This document shows positions 14,437 to 49,463 of a stretch of 57,897 nt of DNA, piece after piece. Within the stretch, counting starts at the first letter, position 1; each line of letters opens with the position of its first letter. A program made the translations under genes and the position numbers. The notes beneath the pieces are model-generated. The model made no database searches. It was not told the DNA's origin and worked only from the letters and a program-made list of their open reading frames with translations. This DNA comes from a virus (lineage: Duplodnaviria > Caudoviricetes). Location of the stretch: the IMG/VR virus record IMGVR_UViG_3300027985_001099, positions 1-57,897 of that record, one strand, 5' to 3'.

Positions 14437-15681
14437 TTATCGCTCCTTGCTGGCTTTCGGCTTGGCGCCGGTTACTTGGCGGTAGGACGCCATGATTTGC
14501 TTAACCGGGTCCGCCGCAGCGTCCGTGTCGGTGGATTCGGATTGCAGATTCGGGTTACCGGTTTCGACCATCGCCTGGTCAAAGGACGTACCCGCGGGAG
14601 GCGTGGCGGCCGGGGCAGCCGGTTCAACCGGCGCTGCCGCGAGTATGCCGCGGGCCTGCTCAGCGGTCAGGTCGGTTTCCATAGCCAGGTGGTTGGCCAG
14701 TTTTCCTCGGCCATTAGCCTCTTGGCAGGACAGAATGGCCTGCAGACGCTGGCGTTCGGCTTTGGCGCCGGTGGCGCGCTCGGCGGCCGGATCGGCTACG
14801 GCCTGGGTGTTGTCAGTTTCCGTTGACATATACAATGCTCCTTTGACCACTCGGGCCTCAAAATCCTGCAGCGCCGCCGCTGCCGGTTGAACAACGTCCG
14901 CCAGACCGGCTTCCAATGCCGCTTCTGGCCCGTACACTCCAGCTTGCGTTTCTCGTACCACCGACTCATCAATGCCGCGATTTCTGGCGACGGTACCCAC
15001 AAAGATATTGTACAGAGAATCGACTCTCGATTGAATCCGGGCTTTGGCCTCGTCGGTCAGATCATGGTACGGATTGCCGTCGACTTTATGGGCTCCCGCG
15101 TAGATCAAGGTCACCTTGACCCCGGCGTTGGCCAAGGCTGTTTCACGTGAAACATGCGTGGTGACGACACCGATCGACCCGACAAGGCCTGTGCGAGGCA
15201 TACTGATCTTGCTGGCGGCAGAAGCCAGACTGTAACCGGCGCTCAAAGCGTGATCGTTGACAAACGCCTCAATGGTCTTTTTCTCTCTGGCGGCATAGAG
15301 GAAATCCGCAAGGTCAAAATTGCCGGAAGCGTCGCCCCCGGGGGTGTTGTACACCATAGCGATTCCGCGGACATTGGGGTCCGTAATTCCCCTGCCTACG
15401 GCTTCCTGGATGTACCGGTAACCCGTGAACCATCCGGACATAGTCCCGCTTATCCCATTCATCAAAATACCGCTAACCGGTACCTGGAGAACGCCATTCT
15501 GAACGTTATACGGTCGATACCAGGCGAAGTCCGGGTGCCAAAAATCCGCAGCAGCCATCTGCTCTGTCGGGATCTCGGTGTCCGTGGCTAGTAGCGCATT
15601 CAGCAACTGGACCTTATCCGCATTCAGCAGCAACTCGGCATCCGCCAGAGCAACGGCAAACATCTCACTGATTTTGGCCAT
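14437..15681 (-). CDS. S49 prohead protease/scaffold (lambda C/Nu3-like)
   Basis: NTPGG, ALSAGYSLAS, VGSIGV and HKVDGNPY motifs; C-terminal AERQRLQAIL scaffold; ATG 15681 chosen over upstream 15729. Confidence 0.9.
   Translation of the reverse strand: MAKISEMFAVALADAELLLNADKVQLLNALLATDTEIPTEQMAAADFWHPDFAWYRPYNVQNGVLQVPVSGILMNGISGTMSGWFTGYRYIQEAVGRGITDPNVRGIAMVYNTPGGDASGNFDLADFLYAAREKKTIEAFVNDHALSAGYSLASAASKISMPRTGLVGSIGVVTTHVSRETALANAGVKVTLIYAGAHKVDGNPYHDLTDEAKARIQSRVDSLYNIFVGTVARNRGIDESVVRETQAGVYGPEAALEAGLADVVQPAAAALQDFEARVVKGALYMSTETDNTQAVADPAAERATGAKAERQRLQAILSCQEANGRGKLANHLAMETDLTAEQARGILAAAPVEPAAPAATPPAGTSFDQAMVETGNPNLQSESTDTDAAADPVKQIMASYRQVTGAKPKASKER
15139..15154. promoter_or_regulatory. 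parS: parS site 1 (perfect TGTTTCACGTGAAACA), inside the protease gene
   Basis: Exact match to the bacterial chromosomal parS consensus palindrome; encodes (H)VSRET. Confidence 0.85.
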
Positions 15682-17287
15682 CGGTGGCGTCTCCTTCATC
15701 CTCGTCGCGATCGGTTGGGCTCTGGCCATCTTGTTCCTGGTTTCCGGAAACCGTTACTTGCTCCGTAACTAGCCCTAGCTTCTCCATCATCACCCTCTCG
15801 CGCTTGCGCTGCCTAGCTACTTGGCGCCAGTCCTTACCCAGGCGCGCAAGCTCATCTTCGTATGTGGATAGCCCCTTTTCGATCCGCATAACTGCGGCCT
15901 GTGTTTCCTTCAATTCGTCAATCTGGCCGCGACTGGCGCCGACCCATTCGCACGCAGAATATGCTTCCGCGTTCAGCCCCTCGTACCAGCTCGGCGCATT
16001 TGGCGGCAGCTTGATCAGCCCCTTGTTTAGGGCTTCTTCCAGCCACAGGCGGTACACCTGGCTAGCGAAGGCATCTGCGACCATGTGCTTGCGTGACTGC
16101 ATATACTTCCAGGTCTCGGCCATCGCGGCTCGAGCACTGGAGTAGTTTGTCTGGGTGTAGTCGCGGCTCAACTGCTCGTAGCTGACCCCCAAGGCCGCGG
16201 ATATGTGCCGTAGCAATGACTGCTCAAAGCTGGTACCTACCCCACCGGGGGAATTTGCGTTTTGCAGATGGAGCTTAGTTCCGGGGTACAGGTGGGGCAC
16301 CTTAACCCCATCTATGGCTATGTTGTTTGACCCGCCAACGTACTGAGCTATGGCCTCAAGGTAATCTGTAGCCCATGCGCTAGACCCGCCGGTACCGAGC
16401 TGGGCGTACGCAACTTCTGGGGGAAGCTCGGATTCGATTGTGGCGGCGTACGTTGCGTTCAGCACCGCATTCTGAAGCACAACATCCCGATACCGGGAGG
16501 TCATCTTCATCTCTTTCAATACCGATACCATCTCGGCCACGCCGCGGGTCTGGCCTGGGCGCATCTGGTCAGGAACGATGTGGATAATTTGCGGCCGGCC
16601 CCACGGCTTCGCTGCGGGTACCCGCGTCCATTTGAAGGCGCGCAGGTCGGTGGCATAGTCCCCGGGATGTGCGTTGCGAATGTAATAGGCTATGGGCGCT
16701 CCGTAAAAATCGAGCTCGATCCCCCGGCGCAAAAACCGGCTATCGTTGACTCCGTCTGGGTTGCTGAGCCGGTCGGGGTCTATCATCTGAATTGCGGTGG
16801 AAAAAGGGCGATCGCTGCGCCGGATCCATTCCACTGATGCCAGGGTTTCTCCAGACAGTACTGATATCCCGACAGCCAGTCGAACTAGCGCCGTGAAGGT
16901 ATTGCTGCGACTCGCATCCACGTGCTTGCGCGGAGACTCGGCCCACAAAGTGAATAGCCCTTCGACCTGCTCTTGGAACTGCTCAGCCCATTCCTCGGTA
17001 AGTCCCAGCAGTTGCCAATTTGGCTTCGCGCTTAAACAGAATTGCGCCCCAACGATGTTGTCTCGATGGATGGCGACGCCGCCGCGGATATAACCGTCGT
17101 TACGCGCCATGTCCCGAACTCGAGCGTCGAGAGTCTGCTTCTCCGGGAGCATTTCCCGGTCCGCAGACTGGACAGGCGGTGACCACAAAGCCAGCTCGCG
17201 AGACAGCCGACTAGAGCCCTCGTAGGCCCCTCCGATGAGCTTGACCCCTGGCGGGTCCTCCTGCAAAAACTCGTCGATGGCAGACAT
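15665..17287 (-). CDS. Portal protein, lambda family
   Basis: RPGQTRGV, SRDYTQTNYSSARA and GQIDELKE motifs. Confidence 0.95.
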   Translation of the reverse strand: MSAIDEFLQEDPPGVKLIGGAYEGSSRLSRELALWSPPVQSADREMLPEKQTLDARVRDMARNDGYIRGGVAIHRDNIVGAQFCLSAKPNWQLLGLTEEWAEQFQEQVEGLFTLWAESPRKHVDASRSNTFTALVRLAVGISVLSGETLASVEWIRRSDRPFSTAIQMIDPDRLSNPDGVNDSRFLRRGIELDFYGAPIAYYIRNAHPGDYATDLRAFKWTRVPAAKPWGRPQIIHIVPDQMRPGQTRGVAEMVSVLKEMKMTSRYRDVVLQNAVLNATYAATIESELPPEVAYAQLGTGGSSAWATDYLEAIAQYVGGSNNIAIDGVKVPHLYPGTKLHLQNANSPGGVGTSFEQSLLRHISAALGVSYEQLSRDYTQTNYSSARAAMAETWKYMQSRKHMVADAFASQVYRLWLEEALNKGLIKLPPNAPSWYEGLNAEAYSACEWVGASRGQIDELKETQAAVMRIEKGLSTYEDELARLGKDWRQVARQRKRERVMMEKLGLVTEQVTVSGNQEQDGQSPTDRDEDEGDATDGQNQ

Positions 17288-17499
17288 CAGAAATACACCT
17301 TGGCCGGACCGGATACCTGGCTAGAACTTCCGGTAATCTGGATCTGCAGGTCAGCAATATACTGGGCAAGGCGAGAGGCATTAGCAGGCGTGAACTCAAC
17401 ACGTTCACCATTTTGGTCGACTACGACGCGGGGAGACGTCCCCGTCATCAGGCTATGATAGGCCATTATCGCGGCATCCAGCCGCTCCTGCAGGGTCAT
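17287..17499 (-). CDS. Head-tail joining protein gpW
   Basis: AYHSLMTG...VVDQNGERVEFT...LAQYIADL. Confidence 0.85.
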   Translation of the reverse strand: MTLQERLDAAIMAYHSLMTGTSPRVVVDQNGERVEFTPANASRLAQYIADLQIQITGSSSQVSGPAKVYF

Positions 17500-17628
17500 A
17501 TCCGTGACTCCAGCTAGACTATTCTGGGCATTATATCAGGGTGAGCTCGAAAAACGCGCAAAAAATTGGCCCGTATTCAGGCCAGAGACTATATCGATGA
17601 TGCCAGATACACCAGTCGGCTACGAGGT

Positions 17629-17644
17629 CGTTTCACGTGAAACA
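17629..17644. promoter_or_regulatory. parS: parS site 2 (CGTTTCACGTGAAACA), intergenic between terL and gpW
   Basis: 15/16 match to parS consensus. Confidence 0.85.
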
Positions 17645-17783
17645 TCAGGGGGGCCTAGCCGCTCCGAGCTAAATTAAGCGAGTCCGTTCGCGCCACCCTT
17701 CGCCCGCATACCACATCCGTGTGGCCTGTTGGGTTCCGTCCCGATGCCAGACGAGACCAGATTACTCCTGGCGCAAATTTGCA

Positions 17784-19853
17784 TCAAGCGAGTTGTGACG
17801 CGATTTTCGCCAAACGTGACGAGTTCCGATTTTCCACCCGTGGTTTGCCCACTTGCCGCACCATGGAATTGTCGTCCCACTCGGCGGCCCAGGAGGGCGG
17901 GGCGTCCCAGTCGATGTGCTCGAGGGCTATCCATCGGGTTAAGCACAATGCGGCGTCATAAACCAGGTGATCCCACGCTTCGTTGCGCTGCCGGCGTGTG
18001 TTTTCCCATTTCCCTTTCGCATTCTTGGTCTCCACGGTTAACTCACTGTATACCGAATCCGGGAGCCACATGGGGAAGTGGATCATCCCCCCGCCCGGGG
18101 TCACCCGGTCTAATTGTTTATCAATCCCATCCTTGACTAAATCGGTGTTGATCCGCAAAACAGGGACATCCCCACGGGCGCCGGCGTGCCTGTCTTTGCG
18201 TTCCGAGTCCGGGTAGGTTAGCTGGATACGCGGCGACGCGGCGGTACCATCGCCCTTTACTAGCAAAAATCTACTCTGCAGCTGGCCGTCCACCCCCCGG
18301 AGTTTTCGCCAGAAATCGTAGGCCTTTGCGGTTACCCCTTCGCGGCCGCCAGAATCACAGGCCGTCATTTTTATGGCCATGGTTCGACCAGAGCCGTCAC
18401 TCAACGGGTACTCCTTGCGGATCACCTGGTCTATCAGTAGGTCCCAGTCCTCTAGGTACGCCCCAGGGCTAATCCACTCGCGATCGCCGTCGGCATCCGT
18501 GCGGTTGGACTTGCGGATCTCGAAACTGTCGATTATCCACTTATCCCCGGCCACGCCAGTCCCCTGTACTTGAACCCGGAAGCTGTGCTTTTGCACGTCA
18601 ACGCACGCTGTCAAAAACCGCGTTTCACGTGGAACAACGCGCTCCCCCAGGTCCTCGGCGCGGGCCTTTAGGTTCTCGGGAAGCCTCTGAACGGCCAACT
18701 GTTTAGGCACATACGGCAGGCCCTGATCGGTATTGACTGTAGTCTTGAGCGCAATTTCAGACCCGGTGCTCTCGTACTCAGCCACGGCCTGCAGGTACTT
18801 TAACATCAGGTCTGACCAGCTGGCGAAAGCCGCGCACACCCCTTTCAGCCAAAAACTGGCGATATTGCTGTATGCTGGTGTCCCGCCCCGGTTACCATCC
18901 TTGTCGATAGTCTCGCCATCGCGTAGCCAGACCCCACCGAGATTTAGCTCTCGTTTGTCCGCGTGGGTGTGTACCCCGCCGCAAAACGGGCAGACCATGA
19001 CCGTGCTTTTTGCGGCTTCGCTGGGATCCGGGTCGGTTCCCGGTACCAGCAAATGGAAATCCGGCTCAAACCATTCCTGGCAATGCTGGCACTGCCAATA
19101 GTACCGGCGCCGGTCACCGCGGTTGTACAGCGCTAGGATCCCCTGCACGGGTGGGGCCTCGTGACGGGACCGCGGCATCCAGTCGCGTTGCTCGATATTG
19201 TACCCGGGGCTGGACTCAGCTACCGTCATCGCGTAGCGCCGGAATGTCGTGGTGCGCTTTCTGGCTAGGTCGAATACTGCGCCCTCGCCGTCAACGTCTA
19301 GCGGCATTCGGTCGATGTCCGTGATCCAGACGTAGCGAAAGGCCCGGCTCGATAGCTGGTTAACAGTTGGCCAAGCCATGCTCAAATACATTCCGGACCG
19401 ATACAACTTGGTGTATATGCTGTCTGCTTCTTTACGAGGCACCAATTTGGCCCCAACGGCTCGAGTCCATCGGTGAAAACGGTTGATGCGGATCTTGGAA
19501 AACTCTCGGGCGTTCTTTTCGTCCATGTGGACTATGAGCATGTCTGACGGGTCGGTATCGACGGTGTGCCCTATCCAGTTGAAGACGCAGTCTGTCTTCG
19601 CTGACTGCGCCGGGCCGACAAATATCGCGGCCTGAAACTTGATCGATGTCAATGTTTGCATGAACTCGACCATGTATGGGACCACGTCATTGTCCCAAGG
19701 GCCGACAAACGCCCCGGGTGTATTCAGATACCGGTTTTTTTCGGCCCACTCGTCGACGGTAAAGTCCTCCGGGGGACGCAGACCCTCGGCGCAATCCGCG
19801 ACGATCTCCCCGAGGAAGCCGTACCTAGTCGGTTGAGCCCTCTTGTTCGCCAT
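17784..19853 (-). CDS. terL: Terminase large subunit (lambda gpA family)
   Basis: Deviant Walker A GPAQSAKT, ESSP, CQHC/CPFC zinc site, VDVQ, DSGG and RNEAWD nuclease motifs. Confidence 0.95.
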   Translation of the reverse strand: MANKRAQPTRYGFLGEIVADCAEGLRPPEDFTVDEWAEKNRYLNTPGAFVGPWDNDVVPYMVEFMQTLTSIKFQAAIFVGPAQSAKTDCVFNWIGHTVDTDPSDMLIVHMDEKNAREFSKIRINRFHRWTRAVGAKLVPRKEADSIYTKLYRSGMYLSMAWPTVNQLSSRAFRYVWITDIDRMPLDVDGEGAVFDLARKRTTTFRRYAMTVAESSPGYNIEQRDWMPRSRHEAPPVQGILALYNRGDRRRYYWQCQHCQEWFEPDFHLLVPGTDPDPSEAAKSTVMVCPFCGGVHTHADKRELNLGGVWLRDGETIDKDGNRGGTPAYSNIASFWLKGVCAAFASWSDLMLKYLQAVAEYESTGSEIALKTTVNTDQGLPYVPKQLAVQRLPENLKARAEDLGERVVPRETRFLTACVDVQKHSFRVQVQGTGVAGDKWIIDSFEIRKSNRTDADGDREWISPGAYLEDWDLLIDQVIRKEYPLSDGSGRTMAIKMTACDSGGREGVTAKAYDFWRKLRGVDGQLQSRFLLVKGDGTAASPRIQLTYPDSERKDRHAGARGDVPVLRINTDLVKDGIDKQLDRVTPGGGMIHFPMWLPDSVYSELTVETKNAKGKWENTRRQRNEAWDHLVYDAALCLTRWIALEHIDWDAPPSWAAEWDDNSMVRQVGKPRVENRNSSRLAKIASQLA
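18621..18636. promoter_or_regulatory. parS: parS site 3 (CGTTTCACGTGGAACA), inside terL
   Basis: Matches the GTT(T/C)CACGTG(A/G)AAC parS core; encodes VPRET. Confidence 0.8.
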
Positions 19854-20547
19854 CCGTGGCCACCATGTCGTCTAGGGTCACATCCAGACCCAATTCCCGA
19901 ATCTCGCTCAGGGTATTCTCCCCGTCCTTAGTGTCTCGCTGCTCTACCATCCGCATATGCAGCTCATCCAGCAGGGACCGCACCGCCCGGTCGAGGTATA
20001 TCCGCTGGTCATCGTCCAGGGGCGACACCCGATCTACGTCTTCTACCCAAAGCCGAGTGACGTTTTTTATCAGTTTGAAACACTCGCCGAATTTAACCGC
20101 CACGTCCTCGGCACGGAATAGAAACCCTGCGGTTTCCTCCCATTTCTGGCGTTTCAGCATAGCGTCCCAGTAGTCCTTTTGAATGGCTACCGGGAGGTCC
20201 TTAGGCTTGATGCTTTGCAGGTATTCGTCCATGTCGACAACCGGATTGCACAAGTACGGCGCAGCATCGGCGATAGCCCATACCGGGCTACCGTTGACCA
20301 ACGCGACGGGCTTCAACACTCCGATCTTTCTGGAAACCGTCTTTTTGTCTAAATGGAATATGCTGGCCAGGGCCGTAAGGCTAACCCCCCCGATCAAATC
20401 GCTTATGCCTAGCTGCGACGGCTTGGCCGTGACCTGCGGCGTGCCCGCGTACAGCTCCTGCATCTGCTCACGATTTTCAGCTCGGGTGACCGCGGCCTTT
20501 TGCCCAGCCTCGCTCGCGCCTACCGTTGACCTAGGTTTCCTTGCCAT
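19825..20547 (-). CDS. terS: Terminase small subunit
   Basis: HTH-like N-terminal region, LPVAIQKDYWDA motif, overlaps terL start. Confidence 0.85.
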   Translation of the reverse strand: MARKPRSTVGASEAGQKAAVTRAENREQMQELYAGTPQVTAKPSQLGISDLIGGVSLTALASIFHLDKKTVSRKIGVLKPVALVNGSPVWAIADAAPYLCNPVVDMDEYLQSIKPKDLPVAIQKDYWDAMLKRQKWEETAGFLFRAEDVAVKFGECFKLIKNVTRLWVEDVDRVSPLDDDQRIYLDRAVRSLLDELHMRMVEQRDTKDGENTLSEIRELGLDVTLDDMVATDGEQEGSTD

Positions 20548-23456: not shown

Positions 23457-24824
23457 CTATTTCAGCAACAATCTCCGGGCTTGAACCAGAGCGTGCTGTA
23501 GTGTGCTCCGTCCGGCCAATACTTCGAGAACCCGGTAGTCCAGAGTCCCTTTAGCCAGCAGGTGATGGATGAAGCTGGGGCGGGTTTGCCCCGGGCGATG
23601 AAGCCGTTTGTTGAGCTGCTGGTATTGCTCTAGCGACCAGGTCAACCCGAACCACACGATGATCGACCCGCCAAATTGCAAGTTCAGGCCATGGCCTCCG
23701 CTCTGAGGGTGGACCAGCAAAATGTCGATCTTTCCGGCGTTCCAGTCGCGGACTGCGTTATCCTCCTGGTTTAGAACTACGGCCTGGGGGTACCGCTGCT
23801 TGATGCGTTGCATGTCCGTTTTGTAGCTGTATGCGACTAATACCGGATGCCCCGCAGCGGATTCGATCAGGTCATCTAGCGCCTCCAATTTGGCTGAGTG
23901 TACCTCGTGCGGCTGCCGCTCACCATCGTACACGCACCCGTTCGCAAATTGGAGCAGCTTGTTAGTTAGGATCGCCGCCGTCTTAGCCTCGATCAGGCTC
24001 TCATCCTCGGGGAGATCCAGCAGGTACTCCTTCGCAAAGTCACGGTACTGACGGGCTACGGTATCTGGAAGGCTAACGGGAATGTTGTTGTAGGTTACCG
24101 GCGGCAACTTGGGGTAATACTCCGCCGGCAGGCTATAGCATAACCCATCTAGTGCCGTCTCGATCTCCTGGGCGGCTCCCTTTCGGAGGGTGTACGTCCA
24201 TCCGGTATAATCCTCGTCAAACCACCGGCGCCTAAAACTGGTAACCGTTCGGCCAAGGGCCACGCCGGCGTCTAGCAAGAACACCTGAGCCCACAGGTCA
24301 ATATACCCCTTTGGCGCCGGCGTGCCGGTTAGCTCCACAAAGCGGTCCATGTGCTTACGGACAGAACAGACGGCCCCAAACCGGCTGAGCCGGCCAGTAC
24401 CGGTTCTGCGCTTGTGGTTTTTAAGCCCTGAGCTCTCGTCCCATATGACCATGTCGTACGGCCACTTTCGCCCATGTAGCTGTACCAGCCAGGGAATGTT
24501 CTCCCGGTTGATTATGTGGACCGGGGCCGGGTCAAACGCGGCTTTTTCCCGCTTAGCCACTGGTCCTACCAGTACGGAATAGGGCATCCACTTGGTGTGC
24601 TGCCAGCTGCCAATCTCATCGGGCCAAACGTCAGTGGCCACGCGTTTAGGCGCCACAACCAGGACCTTCCCGACCTCAAAGCTCATCAGCAGGTCTGCCA
24701 CCGCGGTCAGCGTGATCACGGTCTTCCCGGCGCCCATGTCCAACCAAAGCGCAATAACCGCCTGCTGTACCACCAGGTTCGAGAAATACGGCTGGTAGGG
24801 CCTAAGCTGAGATCGCGTCAACAA
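23457..24824 (-). CDS. SNF2-like superfamily 2 helicase
   Basis: DMGAGKT, DESS, LTGTP, GHGLNLQ and RLHRPGQ motifs. Confidence 0.95.
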   Translation of the reverse strand: MLTRSQLRPYQPYFSNLVVQQAVIALWLDMGAGKTVITLTAVADLLMSFEVGKVLVVAPKRVATDVWPDEIGSWQHTKWMPYSVLVGPVAKREKAAFDPAPVHIINRENIPWLVQLHGRKWPYDMVIWDESSGLKNHKRRTGTGRLSRFGAVCSVRKHMDRFVELTGTPAPKGYIDLWAQVFLLDAGVALGRTVTSFRRRWFDEDYTGWTYTLRKGAAQEIETALDGLCYSLPAEYYPKLPPVTYNNIPVSLPDTVARQYRDFAKEYLLDLPEDESLIEAKTAAILTNKLLQFANGCVYDGERQPHEVHSAKLEALDDLIESAAGHPVLVAYSYKTDMQRIKQRYPQAVVLNQEDNAVRDWNAGKIDILLVHPQSGGHGLNLQFGGSIIVWFGLTWSLEQYQQLNKRLHRPGQTRPSFIHHLLAKGTLDYRVLEVLAGRSTLQHALVQARRLLLK

Positions 24825-25099: not shown

Positions 25100-27163
25100 C
25101 TAGTCCTTGCGATAGCACCAACTGACGTAACCTGCAGCTTTCAACGGTAGCCCCGGCGCCCAGCTTGGTACCTGCTCCATGCACTCTATAAGCTCGTGCA
25201 GCCCTTGGTCGGGGGCGCTGCCGTCTGTGACCGATACGATCTCATCATGTACGTGCAACACAACCTCAATTCCTCGCCGGTCGGCTTGTACCAGCCCGTG
25301 GGCCAAAATATCCCGGGACACCGCCTGGTCGATATTCTCCGCCAGCTTGCCTGGGTGTGTGTTGAGCCGCACCCACTGTTTGCGCTCGTTTAGTCCCTCG
25401 TAGGTAATGCCGAGATGGTAGTCACCCCAAGGCATCCGGCACATTTCCAGAGCCGGCCTGCAGTAGTGCAGGCGGCGACCTGACGGCAGCAGGATCCGCA
25501 TAAACGGCCCATCGATATCGAATATCACCCGTCTAGCCCCCTCGCCAACTGCCTGTGGCTCGTGACTGGCAATGCAAAGTCTAGCCGCCTTGTCCAGGGC
25601 CCACCACCAATCGACGACCTTCGTATACGTGGCCCGGAAAACCTTAACCGATAGCTCCGCTTGTTCCGGTGTGAGGCGTACCCCCATATCCCAGGCGTAC
25701 CCAAGCAGCCCCGTTGCCGAGACCTCGCCAGTCTTTGGGTCCTCGATAACCTGCCCCTTGCTGAGCATGTACCCGCAGCCGAGAACCCCGGGCTTGGCCA
25801 CCGTGCGCTTAGTCTTATCCCCAGCTTTGTACTCCGCTTCGAGCACGGAATACGGCTTGTCGTAGATGTAGGTGGCAAAGTCTAGGTACGGACACCGGCC
25901 GGCTGCGAATACCTGAAGAATCTTTGGCTCGTCGGCCAGCCAGCCAAGTACCCGGTTTTCTATGGCGTTAAGGTCCGCTACCGCCAGGGCCTGCCCCTCG
26001 GGTGCCTGGATAGACCCGCGTACGCAAGATGACAACGTATCCATGACCGGTGCCGGGGATACCACCGATAATACCGCTGCAGATAGGTCCCCAACATCGC
26101 GCACTGCTTGCGAGTACTCTGGGTCCTTCTCAAGGGCTTTAACCGGTCGCGCCAGATTCTGCCCCTGTAGGATCCGGCCGGCAAACCTTCCAGTACGGAG
26201 AGCCCCTAAAAACTGAATCGTATTGCGTAGCCTACCGTCGGCGTCCACCGCCCGTTGAATGGCGTGGTATTTTTTCACGCTCGTCTTGGCAGACTGTTTA
26301 CGGAGCTCAAGTACCCTCCGCAGCTGACCGGACAAGGCCTCATCTTCGAGGGCCTTGCGGATGTGCCCCTTTTGCAAATCGTTGAATGGGTACCCGCGGG
26401 ACTGCGCCCAGGGGAGCAGCTGAGTGGCCGAATTGGAGTTAGCTAGCCTAGTTATCCGGTTTTGTTCTCCCAGCAGGTGCTGCAGCTCATCGCGGATTAC
26501 TGTGCAGGCGTTGTCGACCATGCGGAGGTTGATGGGTAGCCCGGCTTCGTTGATCCTGCGGTCAAGTCGCCACAGTTCAATCTCGCTATCCAAGGGCGGC
26601 CAGCGGCGAATGCGTCGGAATATGGCGCGCTCCGCGGCCACGTCGCGCCGGTTATAAAGCTTGAACGTCTCCCAAGCCTCCGGGTCTGTTGTCCGGTCCC
26701 GAAATCCGCCAGCAAAGGTTTTGGTTTTCGCATTGGGCGTACAAAAGCGCCGTATCAACGCCCTACCCTCCGCCATCTTCAGGTATTCTTCCGGCAATTT
26801 GATAACCTGGCCTGCCTTTTCCAGCTTGCCCGGTATCCCGAGGGACATGGCCCAGGCCATGGTGCAAAACCACTGGTGCAGGTCCATCGGGATCTGCAGG
26901 ACGTGCTCGAAAATGGTGAGCTCAAACGCCGCATTCCAAGCCTGCTTGCGTACCGATGGATCGCGAAGGAGACCTAGTAAGTCTTTGCCCAGGGTCTGTC
27001 CCTCGGCAAACACCACCTGCTCAATTGGGTCATCATTGACTGCCCACGACAGCATCAACGCCTCGGTGGAACGGTCCCGGGCATAACGGCTGACTCCGTC
27101 TTCTATGTTCCGCTTAGACCGGGTTTCGAAGTCCAAAAACAAGTAATCCATGGTGTTCCTCAC
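25100..27163 (-). CDS. pol: DNA polymerase, family A, with 3'-5' exonuclease
   Basis: LDFETRS, WNAAFE and YNRRD exonuclease motifs; TGRFA, ADLNAIE, R..AK...LG.GY and HVHDE polymerase motifs. Confidence 0.95.
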   Translation of the reverse strand: MRNTMDYLFLDFETRSKRNIEDGVSRYARDRSTEALMLSWAVNDDPIEQVVFAEGQTLGKDLLGLLRDPSVRKQAWNAAFELTIFEHVLQIPMDLHQWFCTMAWAMSLGIPGKLEKAGQVIKLPEEYLKMAEGRALIRRFCTPNAKTKTFAGGFRDRTTDPEAWETFKLYNRRDVAAERAIFRRIRRWPPLDSEIELWRLDRRINEAGLPINLRMVDNACTVIRDELQHLLGEQNRITRLANSNSATQLLPWAQSRGYPFNDLQKGHIRKALEDEALSGQLRRVLELRKQSAKTSVKKYHAIQRAVDADGRLRNTIQFLGALRTGRFAGRILQGQNLARPVKALEKDPEYSQAVRDVGDLSAAVLSVVSPAPVMDTLSSCVRGSIQAPEGQALAVADLNAIENRVLGWLADEPKILQVFAAGRCPYLDFATYIYDKPYSVLEAEYKAGDKTKRTVAKPGVLGCGYMLSKGQVIEDPKTGEVSATGLLGYAWDMGVRLTPEQAELSVKVFRATYTKVVDWWWALDKAARLCIASHEPQAVGEGARRVIFDIDGPFMRILLPSGRRLHYCRPALEMCRMPWGDYHLGITYEGLNERKQWVRLNTHPGKLAENIDQAVSRDILAHGLVQADRRGIEVVLHVHDEIVSVTDGSAPDQGLHELIECMEQVPSWAPGLPLKAAGYVSWCYRKD
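26629..26686 (-). repeat. 58-bp exact repeat, copy A (in pol)
   Basis: Reverse complement is identical to 44135-44192. Confidence 0.95.
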
Positions 27164-27165: not shown

Positions 27166-27181
27166 CGTTTCACGTGGAACA
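27166..27181. promoter_or_regulatory. parS: parS site 4 (CGTTTCACGTGGAACA), immediately upstream of pol
   Basis: Identical to site 3; lies between a hairpin and the pol start. Confidence 0.8.
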
Positions 27182-27208: not shown

Positions 27209-27802
27209 TCACTCCCACTGGTCGGGTGCGCCCTCGCCATCGTCCTCGTCCTCGTCGAAATCCTCGAAGTCCTTGGCGGTGGCCGAAGCGGCGCCGATCT
27301 TCTCCCCATGAGCGGCAAACTTGATGCCTTCCAGGGAACAGTTCACCTGCCGGCCTGCGGCGGCTTCCATGGCGTAGAATCGGATCATGGCGTGAACGTA
27401 ACACCCGCCATAAATTGTGCCGTCGTCCGTCAGCAATTGCTGCTGGCCGCGGAATACCGGAACCGGGCCCTGGGATTCGGCGCGGTTGGCCGACAGGTAA
27501 AAATGCCCTTTATACAGGTCCCCGGTGCGCCCGCAATTGTCTGAGTCACCGTCCCGAAGGGCGCAGTTGTCAAACTTGAGCTTGACCGCTTCCCCAGGCC
27601 ATTTTGCCTCGAATGCCGCCTTAATCGCCTTTTTGATCTGGGCTATGGCCTCTTTGTCGGCTTCTTTGTCAAAGTAGAACTCCGCGCCATAGCGGGGCTT
27701 GCCGTCACCACCGTCATTTTTCACGGTTTCGGCTTTGTAGCATTTCGGATACAGCATCCGCACCCGGCGCAGTTTCACCTCGGTATTCGGTTTCTCAGCC
27801 AT
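27209..27802 (-). CDS. ssDNA-binding protein (DUF2815/gp2.5-like)
   Basis: LRDGD, IYGGCYV and LEGIKF...GEKIG motifs; acidic C-terminus. Confidence 0.9.
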   Translation of the reverse strand: MAEKPNTEVKLRRVRMLYPKCYKAETVKNDGGDGKPRYGAEFYFDKEADKEAIAQIKKAIKAAFEAKWPGEAVKLKFDNCALRDGDSDNCGRTGDLYKGHFYLSANRAESQGPVPVFRGQQQLLTDDGTIYGGCYVHAMIRFYAMEAAAGRQVNCSLEGIKFAAHGEKIGAASATAKDFEDFDEDEDDGEGAPDQWE

Positions 27803-27828
27803 GACGTTTCCCTTTTGTGTGTCGTGGG

Positions 27829-28986
27829 CTAATCCTCGCCCAGGTCTGCCAATGCCGCGCCCGGATCGGTTACCGGGGGGCGTCTATCACTCGCGGGTGC
27901 CAGCACTACCTCGCCTTGCGCTCGCGATACTAACGACGAGACCTGCGTGCGTAGCGCCTTGGGTAACCGCTTCTCTATAGCGGAAGGGCTCAGCATTTTA
28001 GTCTCGTAAATTTGATCTGGGTCAATTAACCATTGCAGAATGAAAGCCGCGGCCTGGTCATCGCGCCACTGCCGCTTGGTTCTGGACGCCACAAGTTTGA
28101 AGCCCGGGAAAGCTTCACCGGCCTTCATCCGGGCGGTTGCGTGCGCCTCAAGGTTGTTGAGCCAATGTCGGACGGAATCCGCAGCCTCAAGCAACTCGAC
28201 GACCTGGTCCGTGCCCAAGTGGTCGACTGGCCGAAGCGTCGTATCCGTCCCGACGAGACCGGTCATGTGCTGCGCCAACTGGGGGCAGCGGGGCGCGAAC
28301 CGGCAGTACCTGCACTGGACCTCACCGGGTACCCGCGGGGCATCCGGCTGGAGCGCCAAAGTGGCCACTTTCTTCACACGCTTCCCAAACTGCAATACCT
28401 CGGCTGTGGGAAGCTCCCACTCGACCAGCTTGTCGCCGTAAAAAATCCTGGGCTGATATATCCGAAACCGGAAACGCTTTATGCGCTCGGGTAGTCCGAA
28501 GGCGTTGAAGACCCCAAGGCCGTAGATCTGCAGCTGTTCTCGGGCATGGGCTACGCCTAGACCCCACTTCAGGTCCTCAACAAAGATGGTGTCATCCTTC
28601 GACCCGCCTATGTCCAGGGTTCCAAATCCGTTGGGTATCCATCTGGAAAGGTCTACCCGCCACTCGGAGCAAATGTCGTCGTGTTCGTCACGGATCGAGT
28701 TCACGACCCAATCCAGATGATCGATCACCTCGTCGTCCACCAGGAAATCACACGGAGCTGAGTCGTCACGACGGATCTTGATGACGTCCCCGAGGTAATC
28801 CGATGGCTGGGTACCGTTTTTCAGACAGCGCTCTAGCAGCATATGTGCTGCGGTACCCTCGGACGCTTCAACCCCGGATATATGGGGCCCGTATAGGGCT
28901 GCCATGTGCTGCTCTGCCTTGATGGCCCCCGGGCAGCGCATCCACTTTGGGGCCGCAGAGGGCCCCAGCAGGTGATGTGCCGACAT
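27829..28986 (-). CDS. DUF2800 Cas4-like PD-(D/E)XK exonuclease
   Basis: H.LLGPS.A.KW..CPG, EGTAAH, FGTLD, DLKWG, QLQIY and C..C....C motifs. Confidence 0.9.
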   Translation of the reverse strand: MSAHHLLGPSAAPKWMRCPGAIKAEQHMAALYGPHISGVEASEGTAAHMLLERCLKNGTQPSDYLGDVIKIRRDDSAPCDFLVDDEVIDHLDWVVNSIRDEHDDICSEWRVDLSRWIPNGFGTLDIGGSKDDTIFVEDLKWGLGVAHAREQLQIYGLGVFNAFGLPERIKRFRFRIYQPRIFYGDKLVEWELPTAEVLQFGKRVKKVATLALQPDAPRVPGEVQCRYCRFAPRCPQLAQHMTGLVGTDTTLRPVDHLGTDQVVELLEAADSVRHWLNNLEAHATARMKAGEAFPGFKLVASRTKRQWRDDQAAAFILQWLIDPDQIYETKMLSPSAIEKRLPKALRTQVSSLVSRAQGEVVLAPASDRRPPVTDPGAALADLGED

Positions 28987-33706: not shown

Positions 33707-33979
33707 TCACTCTTTCGGGGCGCAGTAGGCCACCACCTGGGTGATCGCCACCTGGCAGCTGTCTATCGTCGCCTCGTGGCTCGCAACCGTATTCAGCAAC
33801 GCTCTGTAGGTTCCGCCACCCCACGGCTGGTACTCACACTCCTGAACCATGGCCTTGGGTACCCGGCACCCCATTTCCTGTCGAACCGGCTGCGGCACCG
33901 TTGGCATCGTGCAGGCTGACGTCAGGCACAAGCAGATCAAGACACTCCAAGCTTTTACGTTCGTTGTCATCACGGGCAT
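33707..33979 (-). CDS. o-spanin (Rz1-like lipoprotein)
   Basis: Lipobox LTSA-C, Pro-rich region then Cys/helical segment; overlaps the i-spanin 3' end. Confidence 0.75.
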   Translation of the reverse strand: MPVMTTNVKAWSVLICLCLTSACTMPTVPQPVRQEMGCRVPKAMVQECEYQPWGGGTYRALLNTVASHEATIDSCQVAITQVVAYCAPKE

Positions 33980-34298
33980 TCTCCGTTTTCAGGTTACTAA
34001 TGCGCTGCTGAGCTCTAGCGAGCTCACCTTCCCGGGCGGCCTTCGCCTGAGCCAGGTTTTGCAGCCGCAGGTCCATTTCGATCAATTTGGCTTCCGCAGC
34101 CACTTTGGCCGCAGCCACGGCGCGAAGCTGGTCAGACAAGATCCGGTTTTCCTTGACCGACGCCCTCAGGTCCCCTTGGGCACGGTCTAGCTTGGATTGC
34201 ACTCGGTCGCCGCTAAACCACGCCAAGGTACCCAAAGCCATCACCACCAGGACAATGACGAGCTTCAGAACAGATATGAATTTATCTAAGGTATTCAT
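33834..34298 (-). CDS. i-spanin (Rz-like)
   Basis: GGAGG RBS, single N-terminal TM segment, long coiled coil, CLDLLVPD end. Confidence 0.75.
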   Translation of the reverse strand: MNTLDKFISVLKLVIVLVVMALGTLAWFSGDRVQSKLDRAQGDLRASVKENRILSDQLRAVAAAKVAAEAKLIEMDLRLQNLAQAKAAREGELARAQQRISNLKTENARDDNERKSLECLDLLVPDVSLHDANGAAAGSTGNGVPGTQGHGSGV

Positions 34299-34526
34299 CA
34301 AAAGGTCCTCCATGACCTGTGGGTGGCCCCACACGGACATTGTACTCTCGGCCCCGTCAAGGCACCATTCCCCGCTTGGAGAATGCCGTTTTGGCGTGAT
34401 AGAATCGTTTTTGGCTGGGTACCCTTGGGTGACGTACTGACCGGGGCATTCCAGGGGCGCTGCGGGTCGGTATTACTGGCCAGAATCCAGCAATAATTTT
34501 TGCCTGTAGGGCCGCACGAGGTGAGC

Positions 34527-46307: not shown

Positions 46308-46318
46308 GGGCAATACCT

Positions 46319-46525: not shown

Positions 46526-46582
46526 CCCGCCCCGGAGGCTATGGGGCCCATACGACTTTTACCTGACGCCAAGGAGGCACGC

Positions 46583-47678: not shown

Positions 47679-47702
47679 GTCCCGCCCGAGGGGGAACAGG
47701 CC

Positions 47703-48136: not shown

Positions 48137-48185
48137 CCTGGATCAACATAGAGCCACTTGGCTCATAGTTGGGGTTGCGCGCCTC

Positions 48186-48215
48186 TTGACCATAGTCAGA
48201 TGGGCAGCGTAATCT
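48186..48215 (+). promoter_or_regulatory. Candidate rep promoter
   Basis: TTGACC-N18-TAATCT about 240 nt upstream of rep, giving a long leader. Confidence 0.5.
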
Positions 48216-48228
48216 GGATTGAAGAAAT

Positions 48229-48258
48229 GAAAAAGGCCCCCCAATTGGGAGGCCTTTC
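48229..48258 (-). terminator. Terminator of the antisense RNA
   Basis: Minus strand GGCCUCCC-AAUU-GGGGGGCC-UUUUU (pairs fully, with one G-U, only on this strand). Confidence 0.7.
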
Positions 48259-48327
48259 TAGGCCAAGGTGGATTGCCGTCCCTCTTGGCCAGGTAGCGGA
48301 ACCGTGCGGGGAACAGCTACAAAGTCC
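48229..48327 (-). ncRNA. Candidate antisense copy-number control RNA (ColE2 RNAI-like, about 100 nt)
   Basis: Bounded by a minus-strand promoter and minus-strand terminator, fully complementary to the rep leader. Confidence 0.6.
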
Positions 48328-48333
48328 AGTTTC

Positions 48334-48362
48334 AGTCTATATAAGCACCGCGTAGGCTGCAA
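48334..48362 (-). promoter_or_regulatory. Antisense RNA promoter
   Basis: TTGCAG-N17-TAGACT on the minus strand. Confidence 0.6.
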
Positions 48363-48457
48363 CAAAATTCCATCCCTCGCTCAGTTTCGGCACATACCGA
48401 GGCTAAACCCGGCATCGTCGGGCCGCATAGCCTCGTACCCGAGCGAGGAACCGGGAC

Positions 48458-49441
48458 ATGGAATGCCGCTGTGCGCCGCATGGGCGCGATCAATTTATTG
48501 ACCGGTTACCCCGCCGGCCGTACTGCACCGATGACCCCGCTAGCGGGTTGGACATTCGGCCAAAACACACGGCGCTACGGTACCGGCACATCCAGCCAAA
48601 CCCACCCGCCCATGTGTCCTGCCTGGTTTTCGATATCGATCGGGATAACGGGTATTACGCCTGGAAAGATACCGGGCTACCCGAGCCGCATTGGGCGTCT
48701 GTCAATCGCAAAAATGGCCATGCGCACATCGGGTACCTGCTCGCCACGCCGGTTGTCCGCACCAATGCCGCCCGGCTGGCGCCGCTACGGTACCTAGCGG
48801 CCATTGAGTGGGTCTTGAAGCGTAGGCTTGGCGCAGACATGGGGTACGTTGGCCTCATATCAAAGAATCCCGTCCACGACGATTGGCTAACCGTATGGGC
48901 CCCCCTAGACCCGTACACTCTGGATTACCTGGCCGAGTTCTGTCCGGACTGCGAGCTGGCCGAATATGCGCAAAGGCCGAAACGCGAACACGCCGGGCTC
49001 GGGCGAAACGTTGAGCTGTTCGACAGCGTCCGGGGATGGGCATATACCGCCGTCAGAGCGTACTGGAGACCAGACGGGTATGGAGCTTGGGCAGACGCTG
49101 TGCTTGATGCCTGCCGACAGGCTAACGCCTATGGCGCCGACGTAGGGGGGCCGTTACCCGTTAACGAGGTGCGGGCCACGGCCAAGAGCATTGCGAAATG
49201 GGTCTGGCACAGGTTCACGCCGGCCGGGTTTAGCGAGGTACAAGCTAAGCGGGGGGCTAAGGGCGGTAGGGTGTCGAAACGGCCAACCCGCAGCGGAAAG
49301 ACTATGGGCGAGCTGCTGCCTGAGGTCCACCGGCTCAAGGCTTCCGGCAGCAGCACCCAGGACATAGCCGATCAGCTCAACATCAGCACCGGATCCGTCA
49401 AGCGGTACCTGCGGCAGCCTAGCGATCAAGTGGATCAATAA
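48458..49441 (+). CDS. rep: ColE2-type plasmid replication initiator (Replicase + PriCT-1 + C-terminal HTH)
   Basis: LPRRPYCTDD, HIQPN, FDIDR, N..NGHAH, D.GY.GLISKNP, GLGRN.ELFD, AKSIAKW, FSEVQAKRGAKGG and terminal HTH. Confidence 0.93.
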   Translation: MECRCAPHGRDQFIDRLPRRPYCTDDPASGLDIRPKHTALRYRHIQPNPPAHVSCLVFDIDRDNGYYAWKDTGLPEPHWASVNRKNGHAHIGYLLATPVVRTNAARLAPLRYLAAIEWVLKRRLGADMGYVGLISKNPVHDDWLTVWAPLDPYTLDYLAEFCPDCELAEYAQRPKREHAGLGRNVELFDSVRGWAYTAVRAYWRPDGYGAWADAVLDACRQANAYGADVGGPLPVNEVRATAKSIAKWVWHRFTPAGFSEVQAKRGAKGGRVSKRPTRSGKTMGELLPEVHRLKASGSSTQDIADQLNISTGSVKRYLRQPSDQVDQ

Positions 49442-49463
49442 GCCATATCAGATAACAGCGCCC
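49438..49463 (+). other. ori: ColE2-type replication origin
   Basis: ATAAGCCATATCAGATAACAGCGCCC overlapping the rep stop codon; matches the recalled ColE2-family origin core (TATCAGATAACAGCGCCC, containing the AGA primer site). Confidence 0.85.

What the first reader, a model, noticed from the sequence alone, without database searches (positions are those of the whole stretch)
15139..49463. Candidate new system: a Chi-like phage-plasmid with a ColE2 replicon that borrows the host chromosomal ParABS
Seen: a full virion/lysis gene set, its own lytic replisome (primase-helicase, PolA, helicase), a ColE2-type rep-ori-antisense cassette, and four chromosomal-type parS sites, but no recognisable parA, parB, integrase, protelomerase or CI repressor. 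Established: Chi-like phages are generally described as lytic; classic phage-plasmids (P1, N15) encode their own partition proteins; ColE2 replicons need only Rep plus host Pol I. Inference: the genome can persist as a circular episome, copied by ColE2 Rep and segregated in cis by host ParB/ParA/SMC, a minimal parasitic partition strategy. It also implies a host with chromosomal parABS, so not E. coli or Salmonella. I do not recall this combination being described, but could not search.
Basis: partly seen in the sequence, partly recalled or inferred. Interest (0 to 1): 0.92.

Follow-up and report, generated by a model that had tools for sequence, protein, structure and literature searches.

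The report
Chi-like phage with plasmid replicon, host centromeres
A complete, uncultured tailed phage genome from a vent metagenome carries a whole small-plasmid replication cassette and four copies of the bacterial chromosome's centromere sequence but no partition genes of its own, which suggests it can be inherited like a plasmid using host machinery.

Summary
The window is one complete, circularly assembled 57.7-kb Casjensviridae-type phage genome. It holds an intact ColE2-type rep gene with its origin directly behind the stop codon. It also holds four chromosomal-type parS sites, against 0.02 expected by chance. Six-frame searches found no ParA, ParB, integrase, resolvase, telomere resolvase or common repressor domain.

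New here: the two coding parS sites both read V-[S/P]-R-E-T and replace conserved residues. One replaces a Gly present in 116 of 120 TerL homologues. So the DNA motif itself is under selection. Unitigs place rep on the same piece as tail genes at even depth, so it is not a chimeric join. None of 13 relatives has rep or parS.

The episomal, host-ParB-partitioned lifestyle remains an inference. No close relative, isolate carrier or repressor was found. The host-centromere idea is not new: phi29 carries five parS sites used by host Spo0J, and SGI1 mimics IncC parS. Verdict: a new variant of known kinds. Interest 0.7.

The parts
15139..15154 (.). parS-1, a perfect 16-bp palindrome inside the S49 prohead protease gene, read as V-S-R-E-T (aa 193-197)
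   Evidence: Of 150 homologues, R195 occurs in 4, E196 in 18, T197 in 0, and none has RET.
17629..17644 (.). parS-2, one outer-base mismatch, in the 284-bp non-coding gap between the TerL stop and the gpW-like gene start
18621..18636 (.). parS-3, one outer-base mismatch, inside TerL, read as V-P-R-E-T (aa 407-411)
   Evidence: Of 120 homologues, R409 occurs in 3, E410 in 0 (Gly in 116), T411 in 8, and none has RET.
27166..27181 (.). parS-4, one outer-base mismatch, in the roughly 45-bp gap between a hairpin after the SSB gene and the PolA ribosome-binding site
48137..48457 (+). rep leader region. It contains a minus-strand intrinsic terminator (48259-48230) that could end a ColE2-RNAI-like antisense RNA.
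   Evidence: Terminator scan, 13-pair stem. The minus-strand RNA folds with z -3.48. Aeromonas plasmids have an analogous hairpin, but the sequence is not conserved. No Rfam family matched.
48458..49441 (+). rep, a ColE2-type plasmid-specific primase/initiator (327 aa)
   Evidence: PF03090 at E 1.5e-35. 65-70% identity to Aeromonas plasmid Rep. 3vw4 Rep DNA-binding domain at E 2.6e-18.
49439..49588 (+). ColE2-type origin. The conserved 25-nt block overlaps the rep stop codon (49439-49463), followed by a hairpin and a conserved downstream block.
   Evidence: Alignment with pAsa3 and an A. veronii plasmid. blastn similarity with plasmids ends at about 49588.
49594..49980 (-). 128-aa putative DNA-binding protein (MerR/HTH_17-like C-terminal half) of a kind found on large plasmids. 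It is a candidate regulator next to the origin.
   Evidence: Atlas structure and feature hits, leads only. tblastn gives 83 PLSDB records at about 33% identity, 71 of them conjugative. No Pfam, PHROG or PADLOC hit.
30526..33099 (+). Phage primase-helicase (Prim-Pol, PriCT_2, DUF5906)
25100..27163 (-). Family-A DNA polymerase, a weak Pfam match. The likely true start is the ATG near 27151.
   Evidence: E 3e-5, below the cut-off. Start codon read from the sequence. Syntenic with a gene of the same size in phiTHAF39.
23457..24824 (-). SNF2/DEAD-type helicase
27209..28986 (-). Enc34-type ssDNA-binding protein (27209-27802) and DUF2800/PD-(D/E)XK nuclease (27829-28986)
12935..20547 (-). Head and packaging module: major head protein, decoration protein, S49 protease, lambda-type portal, gpW-like protein, TerL (gpA type), TerS (DUF1441)
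59..11014 (-). Tail module: major tail protein, tape measure protein, tail assembly proteins, and the first part of a J-like tail protein
54111..57797 (-). Large tail protein (phrog_1101/J-like). It continues the family match of ORF 59-1900 across the assembly junction.
33707..34340 (-). Candidate Rz/Rz1 spanin pair in an embedded arrangement
   Evidence: phrog_89 at E 1.6e-4. LysC PF23793 at E 8e-5, below the cut-off.
1..144 (.). Direct terminal repeat, identical to 57754-57897; it is the assembly overlap of a circular contig

Best explanation
This is a Casjensviridae-type (Chi-like) siphophage. It has captured a complete ColE2-type plasmid replicon: rep, the origin directly behind it, and probably an antisense copy-control leader. 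Separately, it has evolved four copies of the host chromosome's centromere, parS.

Most likely mechanism, with shown and inferred steps marked:
1. After injection and cos circularisation, the genome can stay in the cell as an extrachromosomal circle. (Inferred.)
2. Rep binds the origin and makes its short primer, and host DNA polymerase I extends it. This gives theta replication that does not need the phage's own lytic replisome. (Inferred from how ColE2 replicons are known to work.)
3. Host ParB loads at the four parS sites and couples the circle to host ParA, and possibly SMC. Both daughter cells then inherit it without any phage-encoded partition protein. (Inferred.)

Shown: the parts are present, intact and linked on one molecule, and the parS motif has been selected at the DNA level.

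Not shown: that the episomal state exists, that host ParB binds, and how lytic genes are held down.
For: - Completeness and linkage. The record is a 57,897-b contig with a 144-b end overlap and 100% estimated completeness. One 26,242-b unitig at depth 61.6 runs from 44163 through rep and the tail genes and on across the junction, with no joints.
- The replicon is intact. PF03090 matches the full profile, the DNA-binding domain matches 3vw4, and the origin block behind the stop codon is conserved with ColE2-type Aeromonas plasmids. pAsa3 is called ColE2-type in the abstract of PMC4655240. The leader has a minus-strand terminator and folds well.
- parS. There are 4 sites against 0.02 expected.
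- Selection on the DNA. Both coding sites use the same reading, V-[S/P]-R-E-T, at the cost of family-conserved residues. In TerL, E410 occurs in 0 of 120 homologues, where Gly occurs in 116. In the S49 protease, T197 occurs in 0 of 150 and R195 in 4 of 150. No homologue in either set has RET.
- Specificity. 0 of 13 relatives (12 Casjensviridae isolates plus phiTHAF39) have a parS match, and 0 of 13 have PF03090. Many of these relatives infect hosts I recall as having ParABS. Rep gives no tblastn hit in 50,697 phage records.
- No own integration, partition or telomere functions were found.
- A second plasmid-type gene, a DNA-binding protein, sits beside the origin.
- The nearest Rep relatives are Aeromonas plasmids. 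Aeromonas genomes have one chromosomal ParB each and 1-4 clustered parS of the same sequence type.
- Precedents that orphan centromeres work in trans: phi29 with Spo0J and SGI1 with IncC ParB.
Against: - No repressor, antirepressor or any other lysogeny control was recognised. HTH_3 and HTH_17 gave 0 hits in six frames, and the flanking ORFs have no family.
- ColE2 replicons are multicopy (my recollection), so active partition is not obviously needed.
- The parS sites lie 22-34 kb from the origin, among head and replication genes.
- No close relative exists anywhere searched. TerL is at most 59% identical among 5.8 billion proteins, and nothing was found in IMG/VR, GTDB genomes or PLSDB. So there is no carrier isolate and no replication of the co-occurrence.
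- The MCP was found only weakly (24-28% identity) in 2 of 81 Aeromonadaceae genomes.
- The only runs that hold the sequence are the probable source sample. They are served as contigs, so neither the molecule's topology nor its depth relative to a host can be read.
- Other complete viral genomes carry orphan parS without any ColE2 Rep (0 of 17). These include phi29-like phages, which are classed as lytic. So parS does not need a plasmid replicon to be useful.
Confidence: 0.48

Rival explanations
1. The two features are unrelated. The parS sites serve a phi29-like purpose in an essentially virulent phage: host ParB holds or segregates a paused or injected genome during slow growth, a carrier state or deferred lysis. 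The ColE2 cassette is a recently picked-up passenger, either a small plasmid that recombined into the phage and now rides in virions, or an extra origin used during lytic growth.
For: - phi29, classed as lytic, has five parS sites used by host Spo0J.
- Of 17 IMG/VR records with two or more perfect parS sites, 0 have ParB_N and 0 have PF03090.
- Of 6 near-complete records among these, 0 have an integrase, and 3 are phi29-like with protein-primed polymerases.
- No lysogeny regulator was found in the window.
- The family is mostly known as lytic (my recollection).
- The rep cassette is compact (about 1.5-1.9 kb), and its closest kin are all on small plasmids.
Against: - Rep is only 65-70% identical to any known plasmid Rep. 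Its G+C content matches the phage. It is therefore not a fresh insertion from a sampled plasmid.
- The cassette is fully intact, including the origin.
- Both rare features occur together in the one genome and in none of 13 relatives.
- A Gram-negative type host has no spore to be trapped in.
Confidence: 0.27
2. The parS sites manipulate the host rather than move the phage. A replicating phage genome with four high-affinity sites soaks up ParB (and SMC loading), disturbing host chromosome segregation or division. Alternatively, ParB clamps spreading from the sites shield phage DNA or damp transcription of nearby head and replication genes.
For: - The phage carries as many parS sites (4) as a whole Aeromonas chromosome (1-4 at up to 1 mismatch).
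- The sites sit among late and replication genes. Two lie directly beside expression signals.
- In SGI1, parS mimicry also destabilises the competitor (abstract).
Against: - There is no direct evidence.
- As far as I recall, ParB loss is tolerated in many bacteria.
- None of the 13 relatives, which infect similar hosts, has such sites.
Confidence: 0.1
3. The palindromes are operators for an unrecognised phage-encoded DNA-binding protein and only happen to coincide with the chromosomal parS consensus.
For: - About 40 ORFs have no family.
- Two sites lie in intergenic regions next to expression signals.
Against: - All four sites have an identical 14-bp core matching the near-universal chromosomal parS.
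- Two of them lie deep inside coding sequence at a cost to conserved residues.
- No ParB_N or HTH_ParB is present.
Confidence: 0.08
4. Assembly artefact: the rep cassette or the circle is a chimeric join of a plasmid and a phage from the same metagenome.
For: - It is a metagenome-assembled singleton.
- The only holders are the probable source sample.
- A 58-bp exact inverted repeat makes the orientation of 26.7-44.1 kb an assembler's choice.
Against: - rep lies 4-8 kb inside a single 26,242-b unitig, with phage genes on both sides, at the same depth (61.6) and with no joints or loose ends at its borders.
- A second library of the same sample covers the region (X3, 25 pieces, all at least 99% alike).
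- The window's orientation keeps PolA full length.
- The parS sites lie in core phage genes.
Confidence: 0.03

Closest known systems
Bacillus phage phi29 and relatives (host Spo0J/parS exploitation)
   Same: The phage genome carries several chromosomal-type parS sites and no ParB of its own. The host chromosome-segregation protein is reported to segregate the phage genome. phi29 has five parS sites (passages of PMC2731898; also cited in PMC9437464).
   Different: phi29 is a 19-kb protein-primed linear podophage of a spore former. Segregation there is into the prespore and is coupled to Spo0A repression, and phi29 has no plasmid replicon. The window is a 58-kb cos-type siphophage with Gram-negative-type modules plus a ColE2 replicon.
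ColE2-P9 and ColE2-type small plasmids (e.g. Aeromonas pAsa1/pAsa3)
   Same: The same Rep family and domain order, the origin directly downstream of rep with a conserved core, and a leader with an antisense-type terminator.
   Different: Those are 5-15 kb multicopy plasmids. Here the cassette sits in a 58-kb phage. Rep is at most 70% identical, the leader sequence is not conserved, and no mobilisation genes are present.
Classic phage-plasmids (P1, N15, SSU5 groups; Pfeifer et al. 2021, PMC7969092)
   Same: A full phage gene set plus a plasmid replication function on one replicon, and no integrase.
   Different: By my recollection they encode their own ParA/ParB or other partition proteins, plus repressors. 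None was found here. In the search listings, the phage-plasmid papers hold 0 occurrences of 'ColE2'. The 4 papers that hold both words are AMR surveys or a plasmid review; I saw only their listings.
SGI1 parS mimicry of IncC plasmids
   Same: A mobile element without its own partition genes carries centromere copies and is stabilised by another replicon's ParAB (abstract of PMC10954446).
   Different: The machinery hijacked there belongs to a helper plasmid, not the chromosome. SGI1 is an integrative mobilisable element, not a phage.
Marinobacter 'plasmid' phiTHAF39 (NZ_CP045368.1)
   Same: A Chi-like genome of 56.3 kb, syntenic with the window and 48% identical in TerL. It was deposited as a circular extrachromosomal replicon of a cultured isolate.
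   Different: It encodes a tyrosine integrase and an HTH regulator. It has no parS match and no PF03090.

Membership tests
Casjensviridae / Chi-like siphophages | Shared core genes and order: gpA-type TerL, lambda-type portal, S49 protease, decoration and major head proteins, long tape measure protein, own PolA and primase-helicase; genome of 55-61 kb. | tested here: met
   Pfam and PHROG hits. All 30 listed best TerL hits are phages of 56-61 kb; the 12 I opened are all classed in Casjensviridae. Synteny with phiTHAF39.
Casjensviridae / Chi-like siphophages | Formal ICTV family or genus demarcation (proteome or nucleotide identity thresholds). | not tested
   Only TerL identity (at most 53% to isolates) and patchy 65-69% nucleotide similarity were seen. 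This would be at least a new genus.
ColE2-type replicon | Rep with an N-terminal primase (Replicase, PF03090) domain and a C-terminal origin-binding domain. | tested here: met
   PF03090 over positions 3-129 of 130, E 1.5e-35. Match to 3vw4_A, the ColE2 Rep DNA-binding domain, E 2.6e-18.
ColE2-type replicon | A short origin directly downstream of rep with the conserved Rep-binding and priming core. | tested here: met
   The 25-nt block at 49439-49463 differs at one position from two Aeromonas ColE2-type plasmids. It was not compared with ColE2-P9 DNA itself.
ColE2-type replicon | Antisense RNA (RNAI) against the rep leader as copy control. | tested here: inconclusive
   Minus-strand terminator 48259-48230. 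Fold z -3.48. No promoter passed the scan on that strand. No Rfam hit.
ColE2-type replicon | Replication depends on host DNA polymerase I and Rep only. | not testable with these tools
   This is a property recalled for ColE2. It needs a polA host test.
Phage-plasmid | A complete phage gene set plus a plasmid replication gene on one replicon. | tested here: met
Phage-plasmid | Maintained as an extrachromosomal replicon in growing lysogens. | not testable with these tools
   No isolate or relative was found. The runs are served as contigs only.
Phage-plasmid | Own partition genes and lysogeny regulator, as is usual in described groups. | tested here: not met
   0 matches for ParB_N, HTH_ParB, AAA_31, CbiA, HTH_3 and HTH_17.
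Chromosomal ParABS centromere (parS) | A 16-bp palindrome of the TGTTNCACGTGNAACA type, present more often than chance. | tested here: met
   The same variants occur in Aeromonas chromosomes.
Chromosomal ParABS centromere (parS) | Bound by ParB, which then spreads and engages ParA/SMC. | not testable with these tools
   The host is unknown and no ParB is encoded in the window.
phi29-type spore entrapment | A sporulating host and Spo0A operator sites controlling the phage promoters. | not tested
   The modules and nearest relatives are from Gram-negative hosts. Spo0A boxes were not searched.

The most novel reading that the evidence does not exclude
Orphan host-type centromeres are a recurrent, convergently evolved way for phages to be inherited vertically without lysogeny genes, and this genome shows the minimal route from a virulent phage to a plasmid-prophage. 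That route is one captured 1.5-kb ColE2 cassette, which outsources replication to host Pol I, plus four parS sites made by point changes, even inside TerL and the prohead protease. The parS sites outsource segregation to host ParAB. Through ParB spreading over the head and replication genes, they may also supply a host-encoded substitute for a repressor.
Probability: 0.28. Interest if true: 0.85.

Novelty: new variant of a known kind. Interest (0 to 1): 0.7.

Why it matters
If the reading holds, a tailed phage can become heritable as a plasmid with almost no genes of its own for that purpose. It would use a plasmid initiator that recruits host Pol I, and cis-acting copies of the host centromere. 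That would widen what counts as a phage-plasmid. Such elements would be missed by gene-based detectors that look for partition and repressor genes. It would also extend the phi29/Spo0J idea to Gram-negative hosts and to growing cells.

The parS sites were bought with substitutions at conserved TerL and protease positions. That is a rare, clean case of DNA-level selection overriding protein conservation in a virus.

The side survey found 17 viral records with two or more perfect parS sites and no ParB. It suggests the strategy is broader than one phage family and can be tested at scale.

Tried and rejected
**Searches for close relatives**
- Megablast of 20 kb against phages found nothing.
- tblastn of Rep against phages found nothing.
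- The search for related loci with Rep and with TerL in IMG/VR found no confirmed relative. TerL in GTDB contigs also found none.
- TerL among 5.8 billion proteins reached at most 59% identity.
- TerL in PLSDB reached at most 48%. One hit that I opened, a Vibrio campbellii 56-kb plasmid, is a P2-like myovirus and was dropped.
- So no co-occurrence test on close kin was possible.

**Host identification**
- The runs holding the DNA are vent or unlabelled metagenomes and are probably the source sample. Shares of about 0.00 in two other runs say nothing.
- The MCP search of 81 Aeromonadaceae genomes gave only 2 weak hits.
- Aeromonas as host is therefore only a lead from Rep similarity.

**Function of flanking ORFs**
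- Pfam, PHROGs and PADLOC gave nothing useful for about 40 ORFs.
- The Atlas hit of ORF 51519-52151 to a ParB C-terminal cluster (score 0.77, rank 22) is noise level and was rejected.
- ORF 49594-49980 is not homologous to the gene that follows rep in pAsa3.

**Other searches that found nothing**
- No dif/cer-like Xer site. The motif was recalled from memory and the host is unknown, so this is weak.
- No Rfam family and no tRNA.
- The IMG/VR parS-bearing loci were checked for kinship with the window by tblastn. None is related.

- Paper supplements were not consulted. Supplementary tables of phage-plasmid surveys (e.g. PMC7969092) could list replicon types that I could not see.

Full report
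**What the window is**

The 57,897-b window is an entire IMG/VR virus record with a 144-b direct terminal repeat. It is therefore a circularly closed assembly of about 57.75 kb, rated 100% complete. G+C is even, at 54-60% throughout.

Pfam and PHROGs identify a full siphophage virion module on the minus strand. It comprises DUF1441-type TerS, gpA-type TerL, a lambda-family portal, an S49 prohead protease, head decoration and major head proteins, a major tail protein, a 1,651-aa tape measure protein, tail assembly proteins and a large J-like tail protein.

There is also a phage replication module. It comprises a Prim-Pol/PriCT_2/DUF5906 primase-helicase, an SNF2-type helicase, a family-A polymerase (weak Pfam match), an Enc34-type SSB and a DUF2800 PD-(D/E)XK nuclease.

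Lysis is only partly recognisable. There is a weak embedded Rz/Rz1 pair, and no endolysin or holin was recognised.

The best TerL matches among 50,697 phage records reach 48-53% identity. The 12 I opened are all classed in Casjensviridae (AchV4, DSS3-P1, BcepNazgul, Phobos, S-ESS1 and others). Nucleotide similarity to them is patchy, at 65-69%. The genome is thus a distinct lineage of Chi-like phages.

**The ColE2 cassette**

ORF 48458-49441(+) matches the Replicase family PF03090 end to end at E 1.5e-35. Residues 181-277 match the solved DNA-binding domain of ColE2-P9 Rep (3vw4, E 2.6e-18).

Its nearest relatives are Rep proteins of small Aeromonas plasmids. Identity is 65-70% in PLSDB, at most 68% among 5.8 billion proteins with all holders on short contigs, and 57-69% in GTDB genomes (62-69% on the Aeromonas contigs). 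pAsa3, one of them, belongs to the plasmids called ColE1- and ColE2-type in the abstract of PMC4655240.

A 25-nt block overlapping the stop codon (49439-49463) differs at one position from the same place in pAsa3 and an A. veronii plasmid. About 125 further bases are also conserved. DNA similarity to plasmids ends near 49588.

Upstream, the 320-b leader is not conserved in sequence. It does contain a 13-pair minus-strand terminator (48259-48230), and the minus-strand RNA folds better than all 200 shuffles (z -3.48). The Aeromonas plasmids have an analogous hairpin. This fits a ColE2-style antisense control but does not prove it, and Rfam finds nothing.

Directly after the origin, on the other strand, ORF 49594-49980 encodes a 128-aa protein. 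Its C-terminal half resembles MerR/HTH_17 folds (Atlas, a lead only). Its homologues (about 33% identity) lie on 83 PLSDB plasmids, 71 of them conjugative. It is a second plasmid-type gene and a candidate regulator.

**Is the cassette really in the phage?**

The sequence is held by three runs from what is probably the source sample, labelled hydrothermal-vent metagenome or metagenome.

In Logan's contigs of run X1, a single 26,242-b unitig at depth 61.6 covers 44163-57897 and continues 12.5 kb past the junction. Rep therefore lies 4-8 kb inside a piece that also holds tail genes. No joints, indels or variant letters were reported. A second library of the same sample (X3) gives 25 pieces, all at least 99% alike. 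A chimeric join is therefore very unlikely, although no independent sample confirms it.

The assembly graph has one node, a 58-bp exact inverted repeat at 44135-44192(+) and 26629-26686(-). The window's orientation keeps PolA full length.

**The parS sites**

GTTYCACGTGRAAC with up to 1 mismatch occurs four times, against 0.02 expected; no shuffle had more than one. As 16-mers, one site is perfect and three differ only at an outer base. No further site appears at up to 3 mismatches.

Two sites are intergenic:
- 17630 lies in the unusual 284-b gap between TerL and the gpW-like gene.
- 27167 lies between a hairpin after the SSB gene and the PolA ribosome-binding site.

Two sites are coding, and both are read in the same frame: V-S-R-E-T in the protease and V-P-R-E-T in TerL. 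I aligned each protein with its homologues.
- In 120 TerL homologues the columns read V(118) P(117) x G(116) V(100). The window's R, E and T occur in 3, 0 and 8 of 120.
- In 150 protease homologues the consensus is V-D-hydrophobic-S-K. The window's R, E and T occur in 4, 18 and 0 of 150.
- No homologue in either set has RET.

The motif was therefore created by non-conservative changes at conserved protein positions. That is direct evidence for selection on the DNA sequence.

**Specificity**

I scanned the whole records of 12 Casjensviridae isolates plus the Chi-like Marinobacter replicon phiTHAF39. Their hosts include Achromobacter, Ruegeria, Burkholderia, Pseudomonas, Loktanella, Xylella, Stenotrophomonas and Synechococcus, with Klebsiella as one host that I recall lacks chromosomal ParABS.
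- 0 of 13 have a parS match.
- 0 of 13 have PF03090.

So parS is not a family trait, and it co-occurs with rep in the single genome that has either. Because no close relative exists, this is n = 1.

**What is absent**

Six-frame family searches of the window gave 0 matches at E<=1 for ParB_N, HTH_ParB, AAA_31, CbiA, Phage_integrase, Resolvase, ResT-TelK_cat, HTH_3 and HTH_17. The positive controls responded in each case.

No Xer/dif-like site was found with a recalled motif. Roughly 40 small ORFs match nothing. A novel repressor or centromere-binding protein therefore cannot be ruled out.

**Host**

The host is unknown. The Rep and ORF 49594 relatives point to Aeromonas-like gammaproteobacteria. 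Three Aeromonas genomes each have one chromosomal ParB and 1-4 clustered parS sites, including the same outer-base variants as the window. However, the window's MCP has only 2 weak hits in 81 Aeromonadaceae genomes, and the sample is a vent metagenome.

**Comparison with what is known**

Orphan host-type parS in a phage is not new.
- phi29 contains five parS sites, and host Spo0J is reported to segregate its genome into the prespore (passages of PMC2731898; cited again in PMC9437464).
- SGI1 carries mimics of IncC parS and is stabilised by the plasmid's ParAB (abstract of PMC10954446).
- That a single chromosomal parS can stabilise a plasmid through Spo0J/Soj is my recollection of Lin and Grossman (1998). 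I did not see that paper here.

What I could not find in print is a ColE2-type replicon in a phage or phage-plasmid.
- In the listing, all 15 listed papers show 0 occurrences of 'ColE2'.
- The 4 papers that hold both 'ColE2' and 'phage-plasmid' are AMR surveys and a plasmid-classification review. I saw their listings only.
- Searches for host ParB or parS in phage genomes and for temperate or plasmid Chi-like phages gave nothing relevant.
- Supplements were closed.

**A wider pattern, seen in passing**

I took the 17 records with two or more sites.
- 0 of 17 have ParB_N and 0 of 17 have PF03090.
- I looked more closely at 6 of them: the 5 rated at least 99% complete plus G006, rated 87%. They carry 2-4 sites each, and 0 of 6 have an integrase.
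- 3 of these 6 (15-18 kb, two with inverted terminal repeats) have protein-primed polymerases. The one queried, G012, is 47% identical to Clostridium phage CS229P, so these are phi29-like.
- The other three (59.7 kb at 45% G+C, 61.5 kb at 57%, 35 kb at 67%) are unrelated to the window.

Orphan parS thus recurs in unrelated viruses. This makes host-ParB use by phages more credible in general. It also shows that parS does not require a plasmid replicon.

**Verdict**

The proposed lifestyle is the best single explanation (about 0.5) but is untested. The phage would be an episome copied through ColE2 Rep and host Pol I, and partitioned by host ParABS acting on cis sites.

The main rival (about 0.27) is that parS serves a phi29-like carrier or deferred-lysis role and rep is a passenger.

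Novelty lies in the combination and the host range. This is a ColE2 replicon in a tailed phage and orphan chromosomal parS in a Gram-negative-type phage. The principle of borrowing the host centromere system is already known.

Noticed in passing
window 44135-44192 (+) and 26629-26686 (-): There is a 58-bp exact inverted repeat. It encodes the same 19 residues in PolA (aa 160-178) and in the small DUF3850/ASCH ORF 43889-44347 (aa 83-101). It is the only repeat node in the assembly graph, so the orientation of the 26.7-44.1 kb segment is an assembler's choice. It could also allow inversion in vivo. The window's orientation keeps PolA whole.
   Followed up: partly
window 59-1900 (-) and 54111-57797 (-), across the 144-b terminal repeat: The J-like tail protein family phrog_1101 is matched by the C-terminus of ORF 59-1900 (profile positions 121-184) and then by the N-terminus of ORF 54111-57797 (profile positions 183-593). 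The two ORFs are neighbours on the circle and overlap by a few bases in different frames. This is either a split or frameshifted tail gene, or two genes derived from one.
   Followed up: no
IMG/VR records G001-G017 (loci L027, L034, L041, L042, L049, L053, L062, L067, L076, L080, L081, L085, L090, L091, L093, L095, L096): Seventeen viral records carry two or more perfect chromosomal-type parS 16-mers but no ParB_N domain (0 of 17). Five are rated at least 99% complete. Three of these (15-18 kb, protein-primed PolB, two with inverted terminal repeats) are phi29-like phages, probably of Clostridia. Three larger records (35-62 kb, 45-68% G+C; two rated complete, one 87%) have no integrase and are of unknown type.
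   Followed up: partly
L008 (NZ_CP045368.1, Marinobacter sp. THAF39 'plasmid' phiTHAF39): This is a complete Chi-like phage genome deposited as a 56.3-kb circular plasmid of a cultured isolate. It has a tyrosine integrase and an HTH regulator, so at least some members of this phage lineage look temperate or persist in cultures.
   Followed up: partly
window 17500-17783: There is an unusually long (284-b) non-coding gap inside the packaging/head operon, between TerL and the gpW-like gene. It holds parS-2 and, by eye, a TATAAT-like box about 100 b further along the minus strand. It may be an internal late promoter.
   Followed up: no
window 20610-20888 and 22944-23399 (-): Two ORFs between the terminase genes and the helicase match Pfam families named after podophage GP4 fibre and tail-adaptor proteins (Gp77 at E 1e-23, Gp80 at E 5e-50). 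These are structural-protein names inside what otherwise looks like the replication/early block.
   Followed up: no
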